A DNA stretch of 64,000 nucleotides, taken from assembly GCA_964427715.1 (NCBI GenBank), contig CAYRUV010000003.1, positions 9,837 to 73,836 of the forward strand, in the 5' to 3' direction. The stretch comes from an uncultured archaeon. Lineage in GTDB: Archaea > Iainarchaeota > Iainarchaeia > Iainarchaeales > VGJJ01. The translations under genes and the position numbers were made by a program. Positions 47,149 to 57,058 of this stretch are shown piece by piece. Every line of letters starts with the position of its first letter. Positions within the stretch are counted from its first letter, which is position 1. Under the pieces are notes generated by a model. The model was not told the origin of the DNA. It was given only the letters and a program-made list of their open reading frames with translations, and did no database searches.

Positions 47149-48294
47149 CTAGAATTTGCTTCCCGCATCCTGGGGGGAGGGTGGAGTAGTGGCTGTTTCA
47201 GGCGGTATTTCTTCCACGTGCGTATAGACGGGCGCCGCAGGAGTGTTGTCCGGCACGGCCGGCGCGGACCATCCGGTTCCATCCGAGGGAGGATTGCTTG
47301 CCGATAATGTATTGTCTTCCACGCCGTATGTTTCCGCAGGAATGAATTGGAACAATAGGGTGCCAAAGACCGCCGACAAGGGCTGCAGCACGAAGGTGGC
47401 CATGAGGAAGAAAATAATACTTCCCAAGAATGCGGCGATGACCCAGTAGTATTGTTTCAGTGTCGAATATCCTGGGACCGTTTTCTCAATCTGCGTGAGG
47501 ATAGAGGAGGTGTCGATGGTCTTCTGTTCGTCCTTCACTTGCTGGTTAATCTTGTCTCGGTACTCTTGCGAGTTTACATTCTCAAGGGTTTGATCCATCA
47601 GGGTAACAAATCCCGTGACTTCCACATCTGTTTTGTTGCGAAGCTTGGTGAAGGATTCCGATTCCGTAATTTGGATGAGGGTGTTGCGTTGCGTGGTGAT
47701 GAGGAAGTCGGCGGTGATTTTCTGCACGTCAAGTTGTTGGATAACTTTTCCCTGGAACAATGAGTTCTCAAATTGTCCAAAGAGGGCCTGGCTCTGGGGC
47801 AGTGCGACCATGGCCAGCGTCACAAGGACACCCACTCCAATAATCTGCAGTCCCCGCTGCGCCCCGGAGAAGCTGGATCGGAACACGACAAAGTTCTTCA
47901 ATTCCAACCGTTTCATCCGGCTGGTTTCCAACATGAGGGGGATGGATCCGAAATAGAATAGGGCCAGAGGATACCACTGGGCGAACTTTCCAAACAGCAA
48001 GGCACTAATCGCACAGGCCAGTACAGAGGGAACGACAGTGGCCACATACACGCGGGCTCGATCGTCCTTGTCCGCGGAAGCCGTGATGAGGGCGAGGGTC
48101 GCGGAGAAGAATAGGGCGAACAGGGCAAAGTTAACCGAGAGAACGAACCCAATCGACTGAAGATTTCCCACGCTCGAAAGAAGGGAGTCGGGGGTAATGG
48201 CGAGCTGGTCGAGGAAGAAAGCCCACAATAGGGTGAGGATGAAAATTCCGGCCCCAATGATTAGTGTCTTGCGGGTTCCCAGCTCTACGCTCAT
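47149..48294 (-). CDS. Hypothetical multi-TM membrane protein with a large loop and a Pro/Thr-rich C-terminus
   Basis: Start at MSVELGT (ATGA overlap with the map stop). The upstream 58 codons of the track ORF overlap map in another frame. Confidence 0.5.
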   Translation of the reverse strand: MSVELGTRKTLIIGAGIFILTLLWAFFLDQLAITPDSLLSSVGNLQSIGFVLSVNFALFALFFSATLALITASADKDDRARVYVATVVPSVLACAISALLFGKFAQWYPLALFYFGSIPLMLETSRMKRLELKNFVVFRSSFSGAQRGLQIIGVGVLVTLAMVALPQSQALFGQFENSLFQGKVIQQLDVQKITADFLITTQRNTLIQITESESFTKLRNKTDVEVTGFVTLMDQTLENVNSQEYRDKINQQVKDEQKTIDTSSILTQIEKTVPGYSTLKQYYWVIAAFLGSIIFFLMATFVLQPLSAVFGTLLFQFIPAETYGVEDNTLSASNPPSDGTGWSAPAVPDNTPAAPVYTHVEEIPPETATTPPSPQDAGSKF

Positions 48295-49196
48295 ACGAGA
48301 CGGAGGACCTTTCCCTTGTTTATTAACATGGTGGTCTCGAACTGCGCAACTATAGCGCCCTTCTTCTCGCGTAAAACCGAGTGGGCCTCTAATGCGCCGA
48401 ACTTTACCAGTTCTCGCAGGGCTACTTTGCGTGCGAACTCGCTCATTTCCAGGTCGCGCACCAACCATCGTTCGGCGAAGGGGAGCCCATCATAGTTTTC
48501 CGTGCAAAATTCCAATACCTTTCTCGCATTCGTATTACGAACGCCCCCCTGGGCGATGACTTCGAATATCTCCACTTGACCCGCGTCCACAATTCGTCCA
48601 TTCCCATGAATACTCCCAAAGGGTTCCATGGCGTAGGCGAATCCCTCCTCGAGAGTTTCCACATCTCCCGAATCGACGTTGGGGATGGTGGGAGGGCAGT
48701 GGGCGATGTATTGGTCGATTCCATGACCGGAGAGATTTTCCACTGGGTCCACGTTGTGCGCGCGCAATGTTTCCGCAATCGCCGCACCCAATTCTCGCAC
48801 TTCCACTCCTTCTTTAACTTTAGAAAATCCGGCTTCGAGTGCGGCTTTCGTTGCATTAATCAAGTTTTTTGTCTCAGGCGTTTGGGCGAAATCGAGTGTG
48901 ATGGCGGCATCAATGATGTATCCTTCTTTGTGGACGCCGATATCCACCTTCAACACGTCTCCTTTCTGGACTTTTGTTTGGTCGTCGTGTGCAGGAGTGT
49001 AGTGCGCAGCGATATCATTCAAGGATAAATTAAGCGGAAACGCGATTCCACATCCATGTTTGAGAGTAAGAGCTTCAATTTCTTCCGCGATGTCGAGTAG
49101 TTTGACGCCGGGCTGGATCATATCCACGGCTTTCTTGCGGCACAAGGCATGCACCTTGGCGGCATCTTCGTAATGCTCAACGATGTGGGAGTCCAT
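48291..49196 (-). CDS. map: Methionine aminopeptidase, type 2 (archaeal)
   Basis: LSLNDIAAHYTP, DVLKVDIGVHKEGYIIDAA, LSGHGI, AMEPF and the archaeal/eukaryal helical insert. Confidence 0.93.
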   Translation of the reverse strand: MDSHIVEHYEDAAKVHALCRKKAVDMIQPGVKLLDIAEEIEALTLKHGCGIAFPLNLSLNDIAAHYTPAHDDQTKVQKGDVLKVDIGVHKEGYIIDAAITLDFAQTPETKNLINATKAALEAGFSKVKEGVEVRELGAAIAETLRAHNVDPVENLSGHGIDQYIAHCPPTIPNVDSGDVETLEEGFAYAMEPFGSIHGNGRIVDAGQVEIFEVIAQGGVRNTNARKVLEFCTENYDGLPFAERWLVRDLEMSEFARKVALRELVKFGALEAHSVLREKKGAIVAQFETTMLINKGKVLRLV

Positions 49197-49229: not shown

Positions 49230-51653
49230 TCAGACGAAGGAGCCCAATCCCGTCTGCTTTCCCCCGCGCTCCAAATCGGTAGAGTCGATTCCTAGCTCGG
49301 CGAATATTTTTTCCACAGCCGGGATAACTTGGTTTTGGATGTAATAGTTCGCATCATAGTCTCCTTCTTTCACAAACTCTTCTAATTCGGCCCGGTCGGA
49401 AATAGATTTTCCTTTGGAGGTGATGATGAATCCGAGCATTTGTCCAACCAAGACTTCCTTTCCCCTTTTCTGCGCTTTGAGTGCGGCAGAAACATGCGGG
49501 GCCATGGCCGCATACGCATCTGGTCGTCGTTGCATTTGGGTGAGTACAACCAATTCTTTCTTGGGAACTTTCCCTTCCTTCAGTCGTTGAATAACTTCCA
49601 ACACGATTTCGTGGGCGCGCTTTGGGTCTCCTTTCACCAACACTTCTTCCAACACTCTCTTTTGTGTTTCGCGCGCGATAATGCTCACGTCCCTGCGCAC
49701 GTATTCAAATCCTACAATCGTGAGGTTGTTTTCAAAGTCCGCGAGGGCGTATCGTTTCTTCGCCGCGTGTCCTTCTTTCTTAGTGACGAATATTCCTCGC
49801 TTGTAGAGTCCTTCAAATTCCAACTCCATTCTCCCTGGGAGTTTCTTGTTGACTTTTTGCACAAACTTCCGCACATCTTCTTCCGTCTTTTTTCCAGGCA
49901 AGAGGATGAAGGCCGAGTCCGTGTCTCCATACACGGGATTAAACCCTTCTTCTTCGGCCCAATTCAGTGTTTGTCGGATGTAGTGTCTCGACCACGCCGT
50001 AATGGCACGCGCGGACTCCCTCGAATACCAGCGGAAACGAGGATACGCGAGGGTGCCAAAGAATGAATTCAGGACAATCTTGAGTGCTTGTTTTCGCGCT
50101 TTGAGGAATACCAATTGTGGATCTCCTTTCGCTGTTTCATCCATCTTTTTTTGTACGGCAATACGTGCGTCGAGGATGCGTTCTAATACCGTGGAGAACA
50201 ATCCTTTCTTTTTAGTGCAGAACCAATGTCCCGTGGGGGATTTGTTGACGCCTTCTTTACAAGTAGGATGTTCACAATCCAGCGTATCAGGGGAGATATT
50301 ATGGGAGATCATAATGGAGGGATGTAGAGAGCGAAAATCCAACACGGCCAAATTTTCATGCAGGCCTGCCACCGGCTCCTTAACATATCCTCCCTCAATG
50401 GGGGTATTTTCCCGCGCGCGCACTTGTTCATCCGAGGGAGAGTTGGGGAACATCTTTCCTTGCTTCACACTCTCATTCATGAGGGTGGTTTCAACGAGCT
50501 GTGAGGCGGTCATTCGGTTGACTTCGAATAGGGTCAAGTGCACCAGTCGGGCGATTTCCAATAATGAGGGGAGAAATTCATCTCCCAATTCCTGCGTGTA
50601 TTCGGTGTCGGTGAGGTTGTACAACGCGAGCTTGTCCAATCCCTTTTGGGTTTTCCACGTTTCAACAATCTGAGCGTGCGTGAGGGATTTTTCTCCTTTT
50701 CCAAACACCGCGCGCATGACGCTTTCCAAATCCATGCGGGGGGATTTGATGACTTGGAACCGTGCTAAGAGTCGCATCAGCTGATACACGTCCACGTGTT
50801 GCATTCCATGGATTCGGGCTTCGCGTTCGGTTCCTTTTCCCACGAGTTGGACGTCTCCGAATCCATAGTCCATTTTCACCATGTTGCGTTTGGAACGCTC
50901 AACTAGGAAAGGAAAATCGAAGTGATCTCCGTTATACGTGTAAATCACATCCAAGTCCGCAAGAGCTAGAAACGTGGAGGTTTGTTCCAAGACTTTTTTC
51001 TCATTCAAACAAGGCTGCGTGAATTCGTCATGGTAGTCCGCGGCGATGAATACTTTTTTCCCCACCGGCGTGTTCAATGCCACACTGATGATGGGATCTT
51101 TCTCCGGAAGAGGTATTTTGTGCGTCCCATACGTTTCAATGTCCAAGGATCCCGTGCGCAAGAGAGGAACATCCCCTTCAATGGATTGGATGGTTTTCAC
51201 GTGCCCTTCTTTCGTGAGGGTCCATTCCGTGAGCGTGTAGGGAATGAGCTGCTTGTCCAACAAGTAGCGTTTCGTGTAGGGGATGTTGGATTCGAACAGG
51301 GCCTCGACGAAGGGGTAGTTTTTGATGACGTCCCGGGAACGGACTAATTCATTGATGGTCTTGAATGTGAGTTTGAGGTAGGGTTTCTTTTCCCGCTCTA
51401 TCAATTCAACCCTCAATGGAACAATGCCTCCCGGGAGGGTCTCCTCTTTCATCTGGGAAAGAATCTTTTTGGGGTCCGCGGAGGGTACTAATTGGATGTA
51501 GTAATAGGGGGGGAATTCCACGTCCAATAGGTGGATTATCCCAGCCTGGGGGGCAATAGGCCGTATGAACAGGTCGATGACCGACATTCCCTCGTATTCG
51601 TGCGTTTGGACGTCGAGTAGCACCCCTTTATTTGCCTGTTTTTGACTGGTCAT
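49230..51653 (-). CDS. polB: DNA polymerase, family B
   Basis: Exo I SLDIETY, Exo II IYTYNGDHFDFPFL, pol motif A LDFRSLHPSIM, motif B KIVLNSFFG, motif C YGDTDS. 807 aa, no intein. Confidence 0.95.
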   Translation of the reverse strand: MTSQKQANKGVLLDVQTHEYEGMSVIDLFIRPIAPQAGIIHLLDVEFPPYYYIQLVPSADPKKILSQMKEETLPGGIVPLRVELIEREKKPYLKLTFKTINELVRSRDVIKNYPFVEALFESNIPYTKRYLLDKQLIPYTLTEWTLTKEGHVKTIQSIEGDVPLLRTGSLDIETYGTHKIPLPEKDPIISVALNTPVGKKVFIAADYHDEFTQPCLNEKKVLEQTSTFLALADLDVIYTYNGDHFDFPFLVERSKRNMVKMDYGFGDVQLVGKGTEREARIHGMQHVDVYQLMRLLARFQVIKSPRMDLESVMRAVFGKGEKSLTHAQIVETWKTQKGLDKLALYNLTDTEYTQELGDEFLPSLLEIARLVHLTLFEVNRMTASQLVETTLMNESVKQGKMFPNSPSDEQVRARENTPIEGGYVKEPVAGLHENLAVLDFRSLHPSIMISHNISPDTLDCEHPTCKEGVNKSPTGHWFCTKKKGLFSTVLERILDARIAVQKKMDETAKGDPQLVFLKARKQALKIVLNSFFGTLAYPRFRWYSRESARAITAWSRHYIRQTLNWAEEEGFNPVYGDTDSAFILLPGKKTEEDVRKFVQKVNKKLPGRMELEFEGLYKRGIFVTKKEGHAAKKRYALADFENNLTIVGFEYVRRDVSIIARETQKRVLEEVLVKGDPKRAHEIVLEVIQRLKEGKVPKKELVVLTQMQRRPDAYAAMAPHVSAALKAQKRGKEVLVGQMLGFIITSKGKSISDRAELEEFVKEGDYDANYYIQNQVIPAVEKIFAELGIDSTDLERGGKQTGLGSFV

Positions 51654-51688
51654 ACGTGTTTTTTAAGGCCCCAAGGCTCTTTTAACTC

Positions 51689-52147
51689 ATGCCTGGACCC
51701 TCCCCTGAAAACCCTGGAATGAGCCCCTCGATGGCCCCTAAGGGCGGGGACTATTTGATGTCCATGAACCGGGACCTCAAGGCCCTCTCCGCGGCCGTGA
51801 TGGTCATCACCCAGAAAATCAAGTATTTGGTGAGAAATGAGAAAATTCTGGGGAGAAACCTCATTGTAATCAATAAGCGTGTGAGGGACCTCCAGCAGCA
51901 GGTCTCCCAGACTCAAAACCAGGGGGTCAATGATTCCGTGAAAGCCGCTCTGGATGATCTCACGCGACAAGTCTCGGCCATCTCCCAACGCTTAGTAGAA
52001 TTGGAAGCCAAAGTCGATGACGTGTCTCGTTCCTCCGCGAAAAATGAGGATGTGCGAGAAATCAAGTATGTGGTGGACACGCTCAACCCGTTGCATTTCA
52101 TCACCGTGGAACAGGCCCAGCAGATGATGGACAAGAACAAGAAATAA
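51689..52147 (+). CDS. Hypothetical coiled-coil protein
   Basis: Heptad-rich (LIVINKRVRDLQQQVSQ..., QRLVELEAKVDDV). No recognisable domain. Confidence 0.45.
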   Translation: MPGPSPENPGMSPSMAPKGGDYLMSMNRDLKALSAAVMVITQKIKYLVRNEKILGRNLIVINKRVRDLQQQVSQTQNQGVNDSVKAALDDLTRQVSAISQRLVELEAKVDDVSRSSAKNEDVREIKYVVDTLNPLHFITVEQAQQMMDKNKK

Positions 52148-52173
52148 TACACGTCTATTTTTTCCGTAGCTTC

Positions 52174-53724
52174 TCACAAACTAAAGAAATCCTTCACCAC
52201 AGGTTGCGAGTACGTGTCGCGGATGGACGCGCGGTAATTTTTCCTTCCTGCGAGTGTAACAGCCGCTTCTCTTCCAGACACCACTCCTACTTTGGCGTCC
52301 AAAATACTTACCAAATCCTTGGGCAGGTCAATTTCATGCGCGGCGGAGAGCAGGAATCCCACATCCTGATTCATGCTCAGCGTGAGCAGGCGTTCGATTT
52401 CCTTCGAAAGCAACGGTTCACGGGGCACGTCAAACAATTGCGTGGCCTCGGGAATAACCAAGAGTGATTTCACGCGACCCGAAACACCTTTTTGTGAGTA
52501 TAGTTCGTAAATCCCGCGCATCACGGTGTACACCAATAATCGTCTCAGCTTAGGAGGGACATTCTTGAGACGCAAAACCCCCACGCGTCCGATGGATTGG
52601 AACCAGGACTTAGATATCTCTTCAATGGGATTCAACCCATTGAACAATCCCGGATACGTTTGGTTGAGTAAATTAAGTATGCGCATAATACTTGAGATTT
52701 GGAACGCGTTGAATGTTTCCGAGGGAGGGAGTTGTCGCAACACCCCATTGGCTTCTCCCACCGTTCCCACGTGATGTTCGTGCAAGAAACGAATGAGGTT
52801 CTGTCCCAACTCGTGTTCATTTAGTCCCAGCACTTCCACCAATCCTTCCGGGTATGTGAGAGAGAGTTCGAGTTTGAGATTTTCAGGAGCGACGAATTCC
52901 TTCAGCGGAAAACCAATCGGGTCTCCTTCAATCTTCTGCTCGTGCAATCGGGCGGGATCCGGATTGGGGTTTCGCATGACGGAAAACTCATTGTTCCAAT
53001 CAATGATGACCACGGGGATATTGGAGAACAACGCCCCCTCCGCAATCACTTGCAGGATGTGCGTGCGATGCTCCGCTCGTGCGTTAAATATTCCTGTTTT
53101 CTTGAAGAACGAAATGGGTTCCTTCACCATGAGTCCGGTTCCCGTGGTTCCTAAAACAAATTCTCCCGGCATCGCCCCCATGTGTCCGGCGGCGGTTTGG
53201 GCGGCCAGCACGGAGGATTCCTTTTCTCCCACGAAGTGGGCATTCGTGGCCAGCGCGGGATAAAGGAGAGGTATCGAAAAGAACGCCTCCGCGATGTTGG
53301 GGGGGTTATCATTCATGGGTTTGAGGGTAATATCATAGGCCTTGGCCACATCCCCCAGCAGGCTGGCTCCCACATCTAATTTTTTCAGGAGAATATCCGT
53401 TTGTTCTAACACGATTCCTTCCTCCCACACCACACTAATGGGGGAGGAGCCGAGCAGGAGAAAAGTAAACGTCTCGTCCGGCTGGTGCTTGGTCAACACG
53501 ACGACTTCGCGCGGAAGGGTTTGTACGAATCCGCTCACGTCTCCCGTGGCAAGGTAGGGTTTGTAGAACTCACACACGACGTTCGTGTATTGTCCGTTTT
53601 CCTGCTGGAGAATTTGAACAAAGAGTGTTTTTTGGGGGTTCGTATAGACTTCCAATTCGCGGTCCTTTACGCTACCCTTCACGAGCAATGTCCAGGGTCC
53701 TTGGGCAATCTTGAGTAGGGGCAT
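52174..53724 (-). CDS. HerA/DUF87-like (FtsK-HerA superfamily) protein with degenerate Walker A and B motifs
   Basis: KTGIFNARAEHRTHILQVIAEGALFSNIPVVIIDWNNEF replaces GxTGSGK[ST]...hhhhDxxGE[YF]. SLLVIPEATQLF replaces hhhhDEAH. There is no GK[ST] anywhere in the 516 aa. Confidence 0.5.
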   Translation of the reverse strand: MPLLKIAQGPWTLLVKGSVKDRELEVYTNPQKTLFVQILQQENGQYTNVVCEFYKPYLATGDVSGFVQTLPREVVVLTKHQPDETFTFLLLGSSPISVVWEEGIVLEQTDILLKKLDVGASLLGDVAKAYDITLKPMNDNPPNIAEAFFSIPLLYPALATNAHFVGEKESSVLAAQTAAGHMGAMPGEFVLGTTGTGLMVKEPISFFKKTGIFNARAEHRTHILQVIAEGALFSNIPVVIIDWNNEFSVMRNPNPDPARLHEQKIEGDPIGFPLKEFVAPENLKLELSLTYPEGLVEVLGLNEHELGQNLIRFLHEHHVGTVGEANGVLRQLPPSETFNAFQISSIMRILNLLNQTYPGLFNGLNPIEEISKSWFQSIGRVGVLRLKNVPPKLRRLLVYTVMRGIYELYSQKGVSGRVKSLLVIPEATQLFDVPREPLLSKEIERLLTLSMNQDVGFLLSAAHEIDLPKDLVSILDAKVGVVSGREAAVTLAGRKNYRASIRDTYSQPVVKDFFSL

Positions 53725-53742
53725 GGGGAATCACGGCGAGGA

Positions 53743-53751
53743 TTTTTATAG
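53743..53751 (-). promoter_or_regulatory. TATA box (CTATAAAAA on minus) about 23 nt upstream of ATG 53724
   Basis: Back-to-back with the plus-strand TATA at 53766-53774. Leaderless geometry. Confidence 0.4.
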
Positions 53752-53765
53752 CAAAGATTCTCCCG

Positions 53766-53774
53766 TATATAAAA
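53766..53774 (+). promoter_or_regulatory. TATA box TATATAAAA centred about 25 nt upstream of ATG 53795
   Basis: Spacing supports 53795 rather than 53711 as the start. Confidence 0.45.
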
Positions 53775-53794
53775 CCAAAGTCGAGAACCCCCTC

Positions 53795-54385
53795 ATGGTG
53801 AACGAAGAAGTGGTGCGGAACACCATCCAGAAGATGCGCGACGCCGGATTGTCCGAGAATGTCATTGCCTCCACGCTGCAGGATTTGGGCCTTTCCCCGG
53901 CGCAGATGCAGTCTTATTTGACGCCCAACGCAGGAAGTTCACGCCCGCCCGCGCCGAACGTTTCCAGGCCCATCTCGCCTCCTCCTCAAAAGGAAGAGGA
54001 GGATGAAGAGAGCGCTTTTTCCGATTTAGACCACGAGGTCTTAGCCACGCGCACGAGTGAGAAAGTAGTCCAACAAATGGAAGAGAGAAATTTGCTGAAC
54101 GAGCAGACGGACGCATTGAAGGATAACATCACACACCTCGCACTGGAACAGCATGGGCAGCAGTTGCAGGACACGCACAATGCAGTCGTAGAGTTGCACG
54201 ACAAATTAGACTCGGCCAATTTGGAAACAATGAGCAACCGATTGAGTGTGGTGAATTCGCGCATGGATCAACTGCAGAAGGATGTATCGGATGCGAAAGC
54301 ACTGATGGGGGCATTACAAACGTTGATGCAGAAAATACTCGAAACCAACCAGCAGTTGTTGTTCGAGACGAAGAATCGGAAATGA
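53795..54385 (+). CDS. Hypothetical protein: small helical N-domain, Pro-rich/acidic linker, long coiled coil
   Basis: MVNEEVVRNTIQKMRDAGLSENVIASTLQDLGLSPAQMQSYL, then PPAPNVSRPISPPPQKEEEDEE, then heptads to the C-terminus. Confidence 0.5.
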   Translation: MVNEEVVRNTIQKMRDAGLSENVIASTLQDLGLSPAQMQSYLTPNAGSSRPPAPNVSRPISPPPQKEEEDEESAFSDLDHEVLATRTSEKVVQQMEERNLLNEQTDALKDNITHLALEQHGQQLQDTHNAVVELHDKLDSANLETMSNRLSVVNSRMDQLQKDVSDAKALMGALQTLMQKILETNQQLLFETKNRK

Positions 54386-54392
54386 GTCTTTC

Positions 54393-54800
54393 TCATCGCG
54401 AGAAAAGTTTCCCTAAACTATCCAGTATCTTGTTCGCGGAGTCGTAGATTTTTCCCACGGGATCCTTGATGGTCCATTTCATGTTCTCGGCTTGCCTATA
54501 GCTTTTCACACCAGGAGGGGCGATGTGCTCCCCAGCCTTTTCAGCCAGGGCCTTTCCGGCGGCATCAAAGAATTTGGCCGGGTATTTTCCGGTGACCGCG
54601 TCCATTTCCTTCATCTCTCCCATGTATACTTCACGTATTTTCTTACGTGTCTTCCCCACTCCTCGTGCGGTGGCCTTGGAGGCGATGGTGAGGAAGTAGG
54701 CCAAGAGCAATAGTCCTGCCACAATCACCCAGAATGTTTGATGGGTGGAATAGAGAATCCATAGGAAGACGAGTACCACGAGCAGGGAGAACGCATTCAT
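54393..54800 (-). CDS. Hypothetical 2-TM membrane protein with a soluble C-domain
   Basis: Two N-terminal TM helices. Abuts the upstream gene with no spacer (54800/54801). Confidence 0.45.
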   Translation of the reverse strand: MNAFSLLVVLVFLWILYSTHQTFWVIVAGLLLLAYFLTIASKATARGVGKTRKKIREVYMGEMKEMDAVTGKYPAKFFDAAGKALAEKAGEHIAPPGVKSYRQAENMKWTIKDPVGKIYDSANKILDSLGKLFSR

Positions 54801-55175
54801 TCAGAATCCCCCGTGTCCGCCGCCCATTCCTCCCATGCCACCCATGCCTCCATAGGGGTCACCGCCCCCGCCGCCCATTCCTTGGAGCATGGCCATCATG
54901 TCGGGGGACATGCCTCCTTGGTTATCTTCCGAAGGTTTTACACCCACCAAATACGCGAGGATGGCGAGACCAATACACAAATAGAGCATGGTTCCAGAGA
55001 GTGAGGAGCCAAGGAGGAAGAATACCACTCCCGTAGTTAGCGTGAGCACAATCCCTGAGAGGGAACGCAGAGAGATGAGGAGGAAAATGAGGATGGCCAA
55101 TCCTAGCCAGAGCATGGATGATTGCATCGCAAAGGCCAGGAGGAATACCGCCACGATGTAGGTGAATGTGTCCAT
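54801..55175 (-). CDS. Hypothetical 4-TM membrane protein with a Gly-Met-rich C-terminal tail
   Basis: Tail GGMSPDMMAMLQGMGGGGGDPYGGMGGMGGMGGGHGGF. Confidence 0.45.
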   Translation of the reverse strand: MDTFTYIVAVFLLAFAMQSSMLWLGLAILIFLLISLRSLSGIVLTLTTGVVFFLLGSSLSGTMLYLCIGLAILAYLVGVKPSEDNQGGMSPDMMAMLQGMGGGGGDPYGGMGGMGGMGGGHGGF

Positions 55176-55188
55176 GTTTTTTTCTCCC

Positions 55189-55434
55189 TCACTTCTCGAA
55201 CAATCCTATTTTGGAAAAGATATCCTTTCCAAACGTGGCGAAGGCCCACAATAACACGAGCAGCCATACCAGTTCAGGAAACGAGTAAAAGGTCAGGAAG
55301 ATGATGACAATGGCAGTAATCAACGCCAGCTTGGCGCTCCCCACATTACCTTTCGCCCAATTGTAGATCCAAATGAATAGGAAGATGGTGAGGGCTAGGT
55401 GGATGTTGTCCACCAACGCATCATAGATAATCAT
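55189..55434 (-). CDS. Hypothetical 3-TM small membrane protein
   Basis: 81 aa. First gene of a three-gene membrane run, 13 nt upstream of the next. Confidence 0.4.
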   Translation of the reverse strand: MIIYDALVDNIHLALTIFLFIWIYNWAKGNVGSAKLALITAIVIIFLTFYSFPELVWLLVLLWAFATFGKDIFSKIGLFEK

Positions 55435-55480
55435 ACTAGAAAACGGGATTCGCGACTATTTAATGGGACGGGTCCCCCCT

Positions 55481-57058
55481 TCATGCGTCGTAAATCCGCC
55501 CTCCGGATGAAAGGGATTGATATCTCGCCCATGCCTCGTGTACGAGTCGCTTTCCCGTGGGGGTGGGATATTTCCCATTCAGGCAGGCCATGCAGAGTTT
55601 GTTGGATGGAATCATGAGTGCGCTGACCAATCCTTCCAAGGATTGATATCGGAGAGAATCCACTCCTAATTCTCGGGCGAGCTTGTTTCCAGTTTCATCG
55701 TTCCATTGAACACGTTCACGATCTGCGTTCTGTTCCGCGTGGCGCGCAGCAGTGAGCTCGTGGAACGTGCTCATGTCGATTCCATAGAAGCATGGATTTA
55801 GGATGGGTGGACATGCAATGCGCGCATGCACTTCCACCGCTTTCCCTTCTTCGCGTATACGTTGTGCGAGTTGTTTGAGGGTGTTTCCTCGCACCACCGA
55901 GTCTTCTACCAAAATTACTTTTTTCCCCTCCAATACCGACGGGTTGATCGTGAATTTTTCTCTCACCTTATCCTGCCACTTCCCTCCCTCAATGAATGTT
56001 CGCCCCACGTAGCGGTTTCGCAACAATCCTTCCTTGGAGGGGAGTTGGAGCGTGAACGCATATCCGTCCGCGGCCGGCTTACTCGTATCGGGGACGTTCA
56101 CCACCACCCATTCCTCCTTGTTCGTGGAGAGTGTCTCACTCTTCGCTAATTCTTCCCCTAACCGATATCGTGCCTCATACACGCTGCTCCCTTGTAGAGT
56201 GCTTCCCGCGGAGGCGAAGTAGACCCACTCAAACATGCAGTGGGAAATAGGATGATTAGACGCAGTGAAGCGGGAGCGAATCATCTTGTTTTGGTGCACC
56301 CGAATCATCTCTCCCGGGTTCACGTCCTGTATTCCATGCGCGGCAAAGGGCCGCAAGGCAACGCTTTCACTGGCCGCGAGGAAGAAATCCTCGGTGTCCA
56401 CAAACGAGAGGGGTTTGAATCCGTTGGGGTCGCGCAGCACGACTAATTCTCCCTGGGCATTCACGAATACGATGTTGTAGGCTCCATCCAACTGGTTGAC
56501 CATTTCGGCAAACCCCGTTTCAAGTGATTGAGGAGTATCACTTCCGAGGGAGTGGGCAATCGTGTGCATGAGCGCTTCGGTGTCGGTCTTGCTCTTGAAG
56601 TGGTATCCTTTCTCTTGGAGAATCGTTCGCATTTCGGGTGCATTCGTGATGTTTCCATTGAATGCGAATGAGAACCATTTCCACAACCTCGTGTGTGTGC
56701 GCTCAAAGGGTTGAGCGTCCGCGCACAAATCACTTCCGCTGGTGGCGTAGCGCGTGTGGCCAATGCCCATTCTTCCGGAATATTCGGAGTAGAGCTTATG
56801 GGCCTTTTCCGAATCGCTCAAGCAAAAAACTTCCCCCACCAATCCATTTCCCTTGTGGGTCTTGAGCAGGTCGGCTTTTTTCTCATCAAAAATAGTCACT
56901 CCTGCAGATAGTTGTCCGCGATGTTGGAGTTGAAGGAGCATCTTCTGGAGAAAATAGAGCGCGCCTCCAGGAGGATAATGAGAGAGGTCTTTCTTGAGGT
57001 AGACCGCCGCGACCCCGCAAAAGTCGCTAGGTTCCTCGTTGCACGTGTTGGAGCTCAC
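55481..57058 (-). CDS. purF: Amidophosphoribosyltransferase (glutamine PRPP amidotransferase)
   Basis: Propeptide, then CGVAAVY (Ntn Cys), GHTRYATSG, and the PRTase loop VILVEDSVVRGNT. Confidence 0.92.
   Translation of the reverse strand: MSSNTCNEEPSDFCGVAAVYLKKDLSHYPPGGALYFLQKMLLQLQHRGQLSAGVTIFDEKKADLLKTHKGNGLVGEVFCLSDSEKAHKLYSEYSGRMGIGHTRYATSGSDLCADAQPFERTHTRLWKWFSFAFNGNITNAPEMRTILQEKGYHFKSKTDTEALMHTIAHSLGSDTPQSLETGFAEMVNQLDGAYNIVFVNAQGELVVLRDPNGFKPLSFVDTEDFFLAASESVALRPFAAHGIQDVNPGEMIRVHQNKMIRSRFTASNHPISHCMFEWVYFASAGSTLQGSSVYEARYRLGEELAKSETLSTNKEEWVVVNVPDTSKPAADGYAFTLQLPSKEGLLRNRYVGRTFIEGGKWQDKVREKFTINPSVLEGKKVILVEDSVVRGNTLKQLAQRIREEGKAVEVHARIACPPILNPCFYGIDMSTFHELTAARHAEQNADRERVQWNDETGNKLARELGVDSLRYQSLEGLVSALMIPSNKLCMACLNGKYPTPTGKRLVHEAWARYQSLSSGGRIYDA

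What the first reader, a model, noticed from the sequence alone, without database searches (positions are those of the whole stretch)
51689..55434. Six-gene orphan module around a HerA/DUF87-type ATPase homologue that has lost both Walker motifs
The 516-aa ORF (52174-53724, minus) lines up by eye with the HerA/DUF87 branch of FtsK-HerA P-loop NTPases.
- KTGIFNARAEHRTHILQVIAEGALFSNIPVVIIDWNNEF sits where these proteins have h-G-x-T-G-S-G-K-[ST] followed by hhhhD-x-x-G-E-[YF].
- SLLVIPEATQLF sits where they have hhhhDEAH.
- The C-terminal ...VGFLLSAAHEIDLPKDLVSILDAKVGVV resembles their ...Gl.l..Q.P..l...vls.cnt.i block.
- There is no GK[ST] in the whole protein, and the Walker B Asp is Pro. It would be a non-hydrolysing scaffold.

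The neighbours are all orphans.
- Two coiled-coil proteins bracket it (51689-52147 and 53795-54385).
- The second coiled-coil gene is divergently transcribed from back-to-back TATA boxes (53743-53751 and 53766-53774) with leaderless spacing to both ATGs.
- Three abutting small polytopic membrane proteins follow (54393-54800, 54801-55175, 55189-55434; spacers of 0 and 13 nt).

I can assign none of the six to a named family. A dead ring ATPase plus coiled coils plus small membrane subunits looks like an envelope-associated machine rather than a random set of orphans.
Basis: partly seen in the sequence, partly recalled or inferred. Interest (0 to 1): 0.7.

Follow-up and report, generated by a model that had tools for sequence, protein, structure and literature searches.

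The report
Conserved DPANN dead-HerA gene module
A relative of ring-shaped DNA-pumping ATPases has lost its ATP-burning site, and in at least two phyla of tiny DPANN archaea it sits in a fixed gene block with two coiled-coil proteins, small membrane proteins and the DNA polymerase gene, which points to an undescribed protein complex whose role is still unknown.

Summary
All six ORFs exist at the stated coordinates.

**The 516-aa protein**
- It is a genuine HerA/DUF87-fold protein (Foldseek probability 1.0 to HerA; hhalign 96.7% to an active YjgR/DUF853-type ATPase).
- Its Walker A and Walker B sites are degenerate. NARAEHRT stands in place of GxxxxGK[ST], and LLVIPEA in place of hhhhDEA.
- The loss is shared by the whole family. 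None of 123 full-length representatives (241 clusters at 50% identity) has a P-loop lysine motif.
- New residues are fixed instead: GPW, G192, E229, R348 and R498/R502.
- dN/dS is about 0.1–0.2.

**The five neighbours**
- They are true orphans: two proteins with heptad helices and three small proteins with 2–4 membrane-spanning segments.
- They are syntenic with the dead ATPase in Iainarchaeota/Diapherotrites, in Micrarchaeota and in unlabelled lineages, down to about 21% identity.

- The block also includes PolB.
- PolB shares a conserved 35-nt two-way promoter spacer with the 152-aa gene.

**Reading**
- My best reading is a non-hydrolysing HerA-derived ring scaffold, tied by coiled-coil partners to small membrane proteins and possibly linked to replication.
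- The function is inferred, not shown.
- I found no description in the literature I could search.
- I rate it a new variant of a known kind, of moderate interest.

The parts
49230..51653 (-). Family-B DNA polymerase (PolB). It is a conserved neighbour of the module and is transcribed divergently from the 152-aa gene.
   Evidence: The ORF and its translation are. PolB lies next to the cc152 homologue in the Iainarchaeota, Micrarchaeota, c18 and c15 lineages.
51654..51688 (.). A 35-nt two-way promoter spacer between PolB and the 152-aa gene. It holds two A/T boxes: TTTTTTAAG at 51659-51667 and CTTTTAAC at 51679-51686.
   Evidence: The sequence was read. The 35-36-nt spacer length and both boxes are conserved in L001, L002, L003, L021, L022 and L024. 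Promoter function is inferred from position, about 26-30 nt from the far-side ATG.
51689..52147 (+). cc152: an orphan 152-aa protein with a disordered N-terminus. It has the conserved block QKIKYLVRNEKILGRNLIVINKRVRDLQ, a variable heptad region, and the conserved block EIKYVVDTLNPLHF-T.
   Evidence: The ORF is, and alignments are. There are no family matches beyond coiled-coil noise. It is syntenic in most of the 22 loci found through the cc196 partner gene. dN/dS is about 0.10-0.14.
52174..53724 (-). HerA/DUF87-fold pseudo-ATPase of 516 aa. It has an N-terminal beta-barrel-like domain (about residues 12-99), a long helix, a disordered linker (153-205) and a degenerate P-loop core (206-500).
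   Evidence: AF2 model: pLDDT 73. Foldseek: HerA 4d2i at E = 1.8e-10; phage HerA-like C-terminal protein at E = 3e-10. hhalign to an active YjgR-type protein gives 96.7%. Pfam DUF87 scores E = 0.0097, below the gathering score. There are 241 related clusters. dN/dS is 0.09-0.19.
53062..53085 (-). The site equivalent to Walker A, residues 214-221 (NARAEHRT). The family consensus here is G-G-x-x-x-[ED]-R-x.
   Evidence: Translation is, the column profile, and the alignment to GATGTGKT.
52441..52464 (-). The site equivalent to Walker B, residues 421-428 (LLVIPEAT). Pro stands in place of the Mg-coordinating Asp.
   Evidence: Translation is. The column profile gives P 66, E 28 and D 8 of 123 sequences.
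53725..53794 (.). A 70-nt divergent promoter region between the pseudo-ATPase gene and cc196, with A/T boxes at 53743-53751 and 53766-53774.
   Evidence: The sequence is. The motif GATTTTTATAGCA, then about 14-15 nt, then CGTATATAAA is conserved in L001, L002, L003, L021, L022 and L024. Leaderless transcription is inferred only.
53795..54385 (+). cc196: an orphan 196-aa protein. It has an N-terminal three-helix bundle (4-42), a disordered Pro-rich linker (45-72), and one continuous helix (77-195) ending in the conserved motif ALQxLMQKILETNQQ.
   Evidence: AF2: pLDDT 81. Foldseek found no significant match. It has 47 close homologues. It lies divergent to the HerA-like gene in 19 of 21 informative loci.
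54393..54800 (-). tm135: a 135-aa protein with two N-terminal membrane segments and a basic, then amphipathic, soluble tail. It is the last gene of the small-membrane operon.
   Evidence: Homologues were detected mainly in Iainarchaeota-type loci.
54801..55175 (-). tm124: a 124-aa protein with about four membrane segments and a Gly/Met-rich C-terminal tail.
   Evidence: Homologues lie next to tm81 homologues in Iainarchaeota, Micrarchaeota and c18 loci.
55189..55434 (-). tm81: an 81-aa protein with about three membrane segments and the conserved loop YNWAKGNVGSAKLA. It is the first gene of the small-membrane operon.
   Evidence: Homologues and paralogues occur in distant loci.
55456..55464 (-). 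A TATA-like box (ATTAAATAG on the minus strand) centred about 26 nt upstream of the tm81 ATG, in the 46-nt spacer after PurF.
   Evidence: The sequence was read. Function is inferred.

Best explanation
**Shown**
- The 516-aa gene encodes a member of an unnamed branch of the HerA/DUF87 clade. The branch is maintained by selection, and its nucleotide-hydrolysis site was lost before the split of Micrarchaeota and Iainarchaeota.
- Family-specific invariant residues have replaced that site.
- The gene is locked into a conserved chromosomal block: PolB <-> cc152, HerA-like <-> cc196, then an operon of small membrane proteins.

**Inferred**
- The protein still assembles as a HerA-type ring but works as a passive scaffold, not a motor.
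- The long-helix partners cc196 and cc152 dock on it.
- Through them, or directly, the ring is tied to an assembly of small multi-pass membrane proteins, giving a membrane-proximal structural complex.
- The ancestry is a DNA translocase, and the block is tightly linked to PolB, apparently with shared regulation. The cargo or context is therefore more likely the chromosome or replisome than a secreted substrate.
For: **Fold and homology**
- Foldseek to HerA gives probability 1.0, E = 1.8e-10.
- The best viral hit is a phage HerA-like C-terminal protein, E = 3e-10, rmsd 6.1 over 379 columns.
- hhalign to an active YjgR-type protein gives 96.7%.
- Pfam DUF87 is matched by 13 of 47 family members.

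**Loss of catalysis across the family**
- 0 of 123 full-length representatives have GK[ST] at the site.
- R stands in place of K, an acidic residue in place of the second Gly, and P, E or D in place of the Walker B Asp.

**Not a decaying gene**
- dN/dS is 0.09-0.19.
- G192 and E229 are invariant, and R348 and R502 nearly so.

**Module**
- All six genes sit in the same order at 21% identity of the ATPase homologue (L005).
- The HerA-like gene lies next to cc196 in 19 of 21 informative GTDB loci fetched through cc196.
- cc152 and PolB sit on the far side in most loci. The same holds in lineages c18 and c15.
- Flanking genes (PurF, S2) are not conserved outside Iainarchaeota. The block therefore outlives the general gene order.
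- Both divergent promoter spacers are conserved.

**Membrane and helical nature of the partners**.
Against: - No physical interaction, oligomeric state or localisation has been tested.
- The AF2 model is of moderate quality (pLDDT 73, TM about 0.45).
- The membrane operon is less tightly linked than the rest. It lies 0-5 kb away, was not found in the flanks held for L006, L013 and L029, and varies in gene number.
- Two Micrarchaeota loci keep cc196 and the membrane genes without an adjacent HerA-like gene (L009 and L010).
- Insertions are tolerated inside the block (L002).
- Residual nucleotide binding through R220 cannot be excluded.
- The genes form four transcription units, not one operon.
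Confidence: 0.5

Rival explanations
1. Replication or chromosome factor only. The HerA-like protein, cc152 and cc196 are soluble partners of PolB or the nucleoid, for example a passive DNA-encircling ring or a replisome organiser. The small-membrane operon is merely a neighbour.
For: - PolB adjacency is conserved across four lineages, and the 35-nt PolB/cc152 promoter spacer is conserved.
- The ancestry is a DNA translocase.
- A basic C-terminal motif, GRKxYRxxxR, is nearly invariant.
- The membrane operon is the least tightly linked part.
Against: - tm81 and tm124 homologues lie within 0-5 kb in 14 of the 22 loci, and in the same orientation and order.
- In L009 and L010, cc196 stays with the membrane genes even though no HerA-like gene is adjacent.
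- No DNA-binding domain was detected. The cc196 N-terminal bundle gives only non-significant helix-turn-helix-like hits.
Confidence: 0.2
2. Frozen synteny. The genes are unrelated in function, and the shared order is an ancestral arrangement that has not yet been scrambled.
For: - The block lies in a housekeeping region (ribosomal proteins, PurF, MetAP, PolB).
- It consists of four separate transcription units.
- Insertions occur within it.
Against: - The order persists at 20-25% protein identity across phyla, while the flanks (PurF, S2) are lost.
- All five orphans have the same narrow phyletic range as the pseudo-ATPase.
- Divergent promoter spacers are conserved.
Confidence: 0.13
3. Non-canonical but working NTPase or nucleotide-controlled switch. 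R220 and nearby residues still bind a nucleotide, and acidic residues at positions 425/426 in some lineages support slow hydrolysis.
For: - The first P-loop Gly is retained in 92 of 123 sequences, and an Arg sits exactly at the Lys position in 99 of 123.
- E or D is found at position 425 in 36 of 123.
- E229 is shared with the YjgR-type helix.
Against: - The second P-loop Gly is replaced by Glu or Asp, and the Mg-binding Ser/Thr by Lys, Leu or Thr.
- The Walker B Asp is Pro in most sequences, including this one.
- The P-loop is acidic in the family consensus.
- No subfamily retains a full motif.
Confidence: 0.1
4. A degenerate relative of type IV secretion or the Ced/Ted DNA-transfer systems. 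On this view a VirB4-like protein works with VirB2/VirB3-like small membrane proteins to make a pilus or conduit, perhaps towards the host cell.
For: - VirB4/TrwK structures are among the significant Foldseek hits (E about 1e-8 to 1e-7).
- There are weak NCBIfam hits to CedD and CedB (E = 0.0025 and 0.12).
- Small proteins with 2-4 membrane segments lie next to the gene.
- Ced/Ted systems combine a VirB4-like ATPase with small membrane proteins (PMC9905601).
Against: - HerA and YjgR-type proteins score better than VirB4, and a HerA-like N-terminal beta domain is present.
- The motor is dead across the whole family.
- The block has no VirB6/CedA-like large polytopic protein.
- The small proteins show no detectable similarity to pilins.
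- The chromosomal context is fixed and core, next to PolB, rather than mobile.
Confidence: 0.07

Closest known systems
HerA (archaeal/bacterial hexameric DNA translocase; Pfam DUF87/PF01935; e.g. Sulfolobus solfataricus HerA, PDB 4d2i)
   Same: - The overall fold is the same: an N-terminal beta domain plus a RecA-like core with a helical insertion. HerA gives the top Foldseek hits.
- There is weak but repeated DUF87 profile similarity.
- Like HerA, it is encoded next to dedicated partner proteins.
   Different: - There is no Walker A Lys/Ser and no Walker B Asp in any family member.
- The Pfam gathering score is not reached.
- The partners are orphan helical and membrane proteins rather than NurA/Mre11/Rad50, Sir2 or DUF4297.
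- The family has its own invariant residues: GPW, G192, R348 and R498/R502.
YjgR / DUF853 'HerA-like C-terminal' ATPases
   Same: - These are the closest relatives by sequence profile across the ATPase core. hhalign gives 96.7% over 281 columns, the PDB profile hit scores E = 0.037, and the best BFVD hit is of this type.
- They share the Glu equivalent to E229 and the 'VGhhhhsQ/H..DlP' block.
   Different: - YjgR-type proteins have intact GxxGxGKT and DEAH motifs. In P0180 the P-loop begins at about residue 50, with no N-terminal barrel.
- The window protein has a 200-residue N-terminal extension and dead motifs.
VirB4/CedB/TedB ATPases with small membrane partners (type IV secretion; Ced/Ted DNA import, PMC9905601)
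   Same: - They belong to the same superfamily.
- They are encoded with small 2-TM proteins.
- They give significant but lower Foldseek hits.
   Different: - Those systems need an active ATPase and a VirB6/CedA-like channel. Neither is present here.
- No similarity to pilins was detected.
Degenerate ATPase domains used as scaffolds or regulators (e.g. non-catalytic domains of EccC in type VII secretion, clamp-loader delta subunits); from general knowledge, not tested here
   Same: The concept is the same: a P-loop fold is retained for assembly or regulation after catalytic residues are lost.
   Different: In those cases the dead unit works beside active paralogous units in one complex. No active paralogue was found in this window, and the rest of the genome could not be examined.

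Membership tests
HerA / DUF87 clade of FtsK-HerA P-loop ATPases | RecA-like ASCE core with HerA-type topology | tested here: met
   Foldseek probability is 1.0 to many HerA structures. hhalign gives 96.7% to an active HerA-like protein.
HerA / DUF87 clade of FtsK-HerA P-loop ATPases | Walker A GxxxxGK[ST] | tested here: not met
   The aligned site reads NARAEHRT. There is no GK[ST] in the protein, and none at this site in 123 family representatives.
HerA / DUF87 clade of FtsK-HerA P-loop ATPases | Walker B hhhhDE | tested here: not met
   The site reads LLVIPE. Pro aligns with the Asp of FFFDEAH. Across the family the column is P 66, E 28, D 8 of 123.
HerA / DUF87 clade of FtsK-HerA P-loop ATPases | Pfam PF01935 gathering score (23.2 bits) | tested here: not met
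   The window protein scores 16.5 bits, E = 0.0097. 13 of 47 relatives match at E <= 0.01, the best at 2.5e-7.
HerA / DUF87 clade of FtsK-HerA P-loop ATPases | N-terminal HAS-type beta-barrel | tested here: inconclusive
   The AF2 model has seven strands in residues 12-99. Full-length alignments to HerA span more than 570 columns. The domain was not searched on its own.
HerA / DUF87 clade of FtsK-HerA P-loop ATPases | Hexameric ring and ATP-driven DNA translocation | not testable with these tools
   This needs multimer modelling or biochemistry.
YjgR / DUF853 (HerA_C) | Profile similarity across the ATPase core | tested here: met
   See (E = 4e-10; E = 0.037; top hit).
YjgR / DUF853 (HerA_C) | Intact P-loop near the N-terminus, with no N-terminal barrel | tested here: not met
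   P0180 has GATGTGKT at about residue 50. In the window protein the equivalent site is at residue 214 and is degenerate.
Type IV secretion / Ced / Ted DNA-transfer systems | Active VirB4-type ATPase | tested here: not met
   The motifs are dead. HerA and YjgR-type proteins score above VirB4.
Type IV secretion / Ced / Ted DNA-transfer systems | VirB6/CedA-like large polytopic channel protein in the locus | tested here: not met
   The block has only proteins of 81-135 aa with 2-4 membrane segments, and none has a Pfam or NCBIfam hit.
Type IV secretion / Ced / Ted DNA-transfer systems | VirB2/CedA1-like pilin | tested here: inconclusive
   Small helical membrane proteins exist, but no sequence similarity was detected. 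Their structures were not modelled.
HerA-based defence or repair modules (Sir2-HerA, DUF4297-HerA, HerA-NurA) | Adjacent effector or nuclease partner (Sir2, DUF4297, NurA, Mre11/Rad50) | tested here: not met
   Pfam, NCBIfam and PADLOC scans of all the neighbours found none. The chromosomal context is fixed and core.

The most novel reading that the evidence does not exclude
Micrarchaeota and Iainarchaeota share a previously unrecognised, ATP-independent apparatus. It is built from a dead HerA-type DNA-translocase ring, two long-helix adaptors and a set of tiny membrane proteins. It is co-regulated with the replicative PolB and tethers or partitions the chromosome or replisome at the cell membrane. 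That would be a new kind of archaeal chromosome-membrane machinery, specific to these ultra-small cells.
Probability: 0.12. Interest if true: 0.8.

Novelty: new variant of a known kind. Interest (0 to 1): 0.55.

Why it matters
- **Biology of DPANN.** DPANN archaea have tiny genomes and keep few genes without strong need. A block of six orphan or near-orphan genes has been conserved since before two phyla diverged and is wired to the PolB promoter. It is therefore likely to encode core, lineage-specific cell biology.
- **Evolution of motors.** The block is a clean natural example of a ring-translocase fold kept after complete loss of its motor chemistry. It is useful for asking what HerA-type rings do besides burn ATP.
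- **A testable target.** It gives a defined set of proteins to study in the few cultivated Micrarchaeota: where they sit in the cell, what they bind, and whether they are essential.
- **Annotation.** Some members are currently labelled 'DUF87 domain-containing protein', which wrongly implies an active helicase or ATPase.

Tried and rejected
- **Locus search with the HerA-like alignment.** The search for related loci with diverse alignments of the HerA-like family (A7, A8) failed, because no stretch was conserved enough. I used the partner cc196 alignment instead.
- **Second large protein search.** The search with the diverse alignment A7 returned only the close relatives again, because of the candidate cap. 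It was effectively wasted, except for P0180.
- **Structure prediction for cc196.** It was redone with database homologues.
- **Fold search for cc196.** Foldseek gave nothing significant.
- **Defence-system reading.** Rejected. There are no PADLOC matches beyond coiled-coil noise, and the genomic context is fixed.
- **Viral or mobile-element origin.** Rejected. Base composition is uniform, the chromosomal context is conserved, and there are no PHROG matches.
- **Shifted Walker A.** 'GEFVLGKT'-type strings in a few relatives lie in the beta-hairpin before the P-loop strand and are not conserved. G214-K-[ST] occurs in a handful of sequences only.
- **Hits to coronavirus and influenza fusion-protein heptad repeats and to Torovirus spike.** I treat these hits for the two helical proteins as compositional coiled-coil matches.
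- **Bacterial sigma-70 promoter scan.** Not applicable to archaea, and it found nothing.
- **Literature.** Searches for DPANN with HerA, Micrarchaeota with DUF87, inactivated HerA, and YjgR found no description of this family.
- **Active HerA paralogue.** None was found in the 64-kb window. The rest of the genome could not be examined.

Full report
**Context.** The window is archaeal. Around the finding lie MetAP (48291-49196), family-B DNA polymerase (49230-51653), PurF (55481-57058), ribosomal proteins S2, S9 and L13, and RpoN. G+C is flat at about 0.50. The closest relatives of the genes are MAGs labelled Candidatus Diapherotrites or Iainarchaeum. One GTDB contig, L022, is about 99% identical over the module.

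**Observation.**
- The 196-aa start at 53795 is an internal ATG of a longer TTG ORF. The conserved MVNEE N-terminus of the homologues supports it.
- The two A/T boxes in the 70-nt divergent spacer are present.
- A/T 8-mers are not rare in this window. What makes the boxes credible is conservation: the arrangement GATTTTTATAGCA, then 14-15 nt, then CGTATATAAA recurs in relatives whose proteins are 50-75% identical.
- Crude hydropathy gives about 3, 4 and 2 membrane segments for the 81-, 124- and 135-aa proteins.
- It finds heptad-compatible stretches, and no membrane segments, in the 152- and 196-aa proteins.

**The 516-aa protein is a HerA-fold protein.**
- Sequence libraries see it only weakly. 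Pfam DUF87 gives E = 0.0097, below the gathering score. NCBIfam CedD gives E = 0.0025.
- A 24-sequence alignment gave an AF2 model with pLDDT 73. The model has an N-terminal beta domain (12-99), a long helix, a disordered linker (153-205) and an alpha/beta core.
- Foldseek against the PDB returns HerA from Sulfolobus solfataricus at E = 1.8e-10 with probability 1.0. HerA of defence and repair complexes follow, and VirB4/TrwK score lower.
- Against viral models the best hit is a phage 'HerA-like C-terminal domain' protein, at E = 3e-10 and rmsd 6.1 over 379 columns.
- Profile against profile, the family aligns to an active YjgR/DUF853-type protein (P0180) with probability 96.7% over 281 columns.
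- A PDB profile search finds YjgR itself at E = 0.037.

**Both Walker motifs are gone, in the whole family.**
- The window protein has no GK[ST] at all.
- An exhaustive HMMER search of 1.84 billion cluster representatives found 241 related clusters, most of them full length at 470-520 aa.
- In a MAFFT alignment of 123 full-length representatives, none has a Lys-Ser/Thr P-loop at the site.
- The family consensus there is G-G-x-x-x-[E/D]-R-x. Position 425 is P, E or D in 66, 28 and 8 sequences.
- Occasional GxxxxGK[ST] strings elsewhere are not conserved and lie in the hairpin before the P-loop strand.
- Other positions are fixed instead: G9-P10-W11, N29, G192 (123/123), E229 (123/123), G271, P273, R348, G379, R498 and R502.
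- dN/dS against relatives is 0.09-0.19, with saturated dS.
- This is an old, selected pseudo-enzyme, not a decaying gene.

**The neighbours are orphans but real.**
- Each of the five is conserved in related contigs, with dN/dS of about 0.09-0.16 where it could be computed.
- None matches Pfam, NCBIfam, PADLOC, PHROGs or PDB sequences beyond coiled-coil noise. This holds also with profiles and when every family member is scanned.
- *cc196.* It models as a three-helix N-terminal bundle, a disordered linker and one helix of about 120 residues. It has no significant structural neighbour. Its conserved parts are the bundle and the C-terminal motif ALQxLxxKILExN.
- *cc152.* It has two conserved blocks separated by a variable heptad region that is shortened in Micrarchaeota.

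**Synteny.**
- In three Iainarchaeota/Diapherotrites contigs the order S2-PurF-tm81-tm124-tm135 / cc196 / HerA-like / cc152 / PolB-MetAP is kept. One of them carries insertions.
- A representative only 21% identical (P0100) has all six genes in the same order and orientation, followed by PolB.
- I used the conserved C-terminal motif of cc196 to fetch 22 loci from GTDB species representatives. They come from Candidatus Micrarchaeota, from Iainarchaeum/Diapherotrites, or are unlabelled. HMMs for all six families were then run over every ORF in those loci.
  - The HerA-like gene lies divergent to cc196 in 18 loci and nearby in one more.
  - Two loci have a different gene there (L009, L010), and one is at a contig edge.
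  - cc152 is on the far side of the HerA-like gene in 14 loci.
  - tm81 and/or tm124 homologues lie 0-5 kb beyond cc196 in 14 loci.
- Two further lineages (c18, L030; c15, L031) show the same layout, with the membrane-gene run expanded to 5-8 genes.
- PurF and S2 adjacency is confined to Iainarchaeota, so the block outlasts the surrounding gene order.

**PolB is part of the conserved picture.**
- PolB sits divergent to cc152 in nearly all loci with enough sequence.
- In the window the two start codons are 35 nt apart, with two A/T boxes between them. Each box is about 26-30 nt from the far-side ATG.
- The spacer length of 35-36 nt and both boxes are conserved in six relatives.
- This suggests a shared, compact two-way promoter, and so co-regulation of cc152 with the polymerase. 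That step is inferred.

**Interpretation.**
- *Shown.* The fold, the family-wide loss of catalytic motifs, purifying selection, the narrow phyletic range (Micrarchaeota, Iainarchaeota and unlabelled relatives), and conserved linkage with two helical proteins, small membrane proteins and PolB.
- *Inferred.* Ring assembly, a scaffold role, physical contacts, membrane tethering, and any link to DNA.
- I favour a non-hydrolysing ring scaffold connected by helical adaptors to a small-membrane-protein assembly, with a probable chromosome or replisome connection.
- The rivals are: a purely replication-linked soluble complex; passive ancestral synteny; a non-canonical nucleotide switch; and a degenerate T4SS/Ced-like system.
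- The T4SS/Ced-like rival is weakened by the lack of a VirB6/CedA-like channel protein and of an active ATPase, both of which define those systems.

**Novelty.**
- Searches of the paper library found no description of this family or block.
- Public annotations are 'hypothetical protein' or, for fragments, 'DUF87 domain-containing protein'.
- It is best filed as a new, catalytically dead variant within the HerA clade, with a new partner set. It should not be filed as a member of functional HerA, YjgR or VirB4 families, whose defining motifs it fails.

Noticed in passing
window 51654-51688 (between PolB 49230-51653 and the 152-aa gene): This 35-nt divergent spacer holds two A/T boxes (TTTTTTAAG at 51659-67 and CTTTTAAC at 51679-86). 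Its length of 35-36 nt and both boxes are conserved in six related contigs. It looks like a compact, interleaved two-way promoter shared with the DNA polymerase gene.
   Followed up: partly
L024 (JAGVNS010000035.1, labelled 'Thaumarchaeota archaeon DeMMO3_24'): The contig carries MetAP-PolB-cc152-HerA-like-cc196, with the HerA-like protein 76% identical to the window's. It is probably a mis-binned or mislabelled Iainarchaeota/Diapherotrites contig.
   Followed up: no
window 54801-54920 (C-terminal tail of the 124-aa membrane protein): The tail is Gly/Met-rich (GGMSPDMMAMLQGMGGGGGDPYGGMGGMGGMGGGHGGF) and recalls the GGM tails of chaperonins. Distant homologues keep only a short Gly- and aromatic-rich tail.
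   Followed up: partly
L009 6078-6905 and L010 (Micrarchaeota): cc196 and the tm81/tm124 genes are present, but a 275-aa Cys-rich gene of unknown family occupies the place of the HerA-like gene. I could not tell whether the HerA-like gene lies elsewhere in those genomes.
   Followed up: partly
L030 2323-5360 and L031 2857-4915: In two unlabelled lineages the small-membrane-gene run before cc196 is expanded to 5-8 genes. These include tm81 paralogues and several 2-TM proteins with soluble tails.
   Followed up: partly
L006 10199-14278 and L030 8062-11937: The PolB genes next to the module carry intein and LAGLIDADG insertions in these lineages (1359 and 1291 aa), unlike the 807-aa PolB of the window.
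   Followed up: no
L029 4122-5464: The block is rearranged. PolB is convergent on the HerA-like gene and no cc152 was detected. MetAP and a tRNA-like sequence lie between the HerA-like gene and cc196.
   Followed up: no
L022 (CAZKYB010000001.1, uncultured archaeon SRP342105_co1_296): This GTDB representative contig is about 99% identical to the window over the module. It is probably the same species as the window's source.
   Followed up: no
window 52148-52173: cc152 and the HerA-like gene converge with a 26-nt gap that contains a T-run (TATTTTTT at 52156-63). It may be a shared oligo-T archaeal terminator.
   Followed up: no
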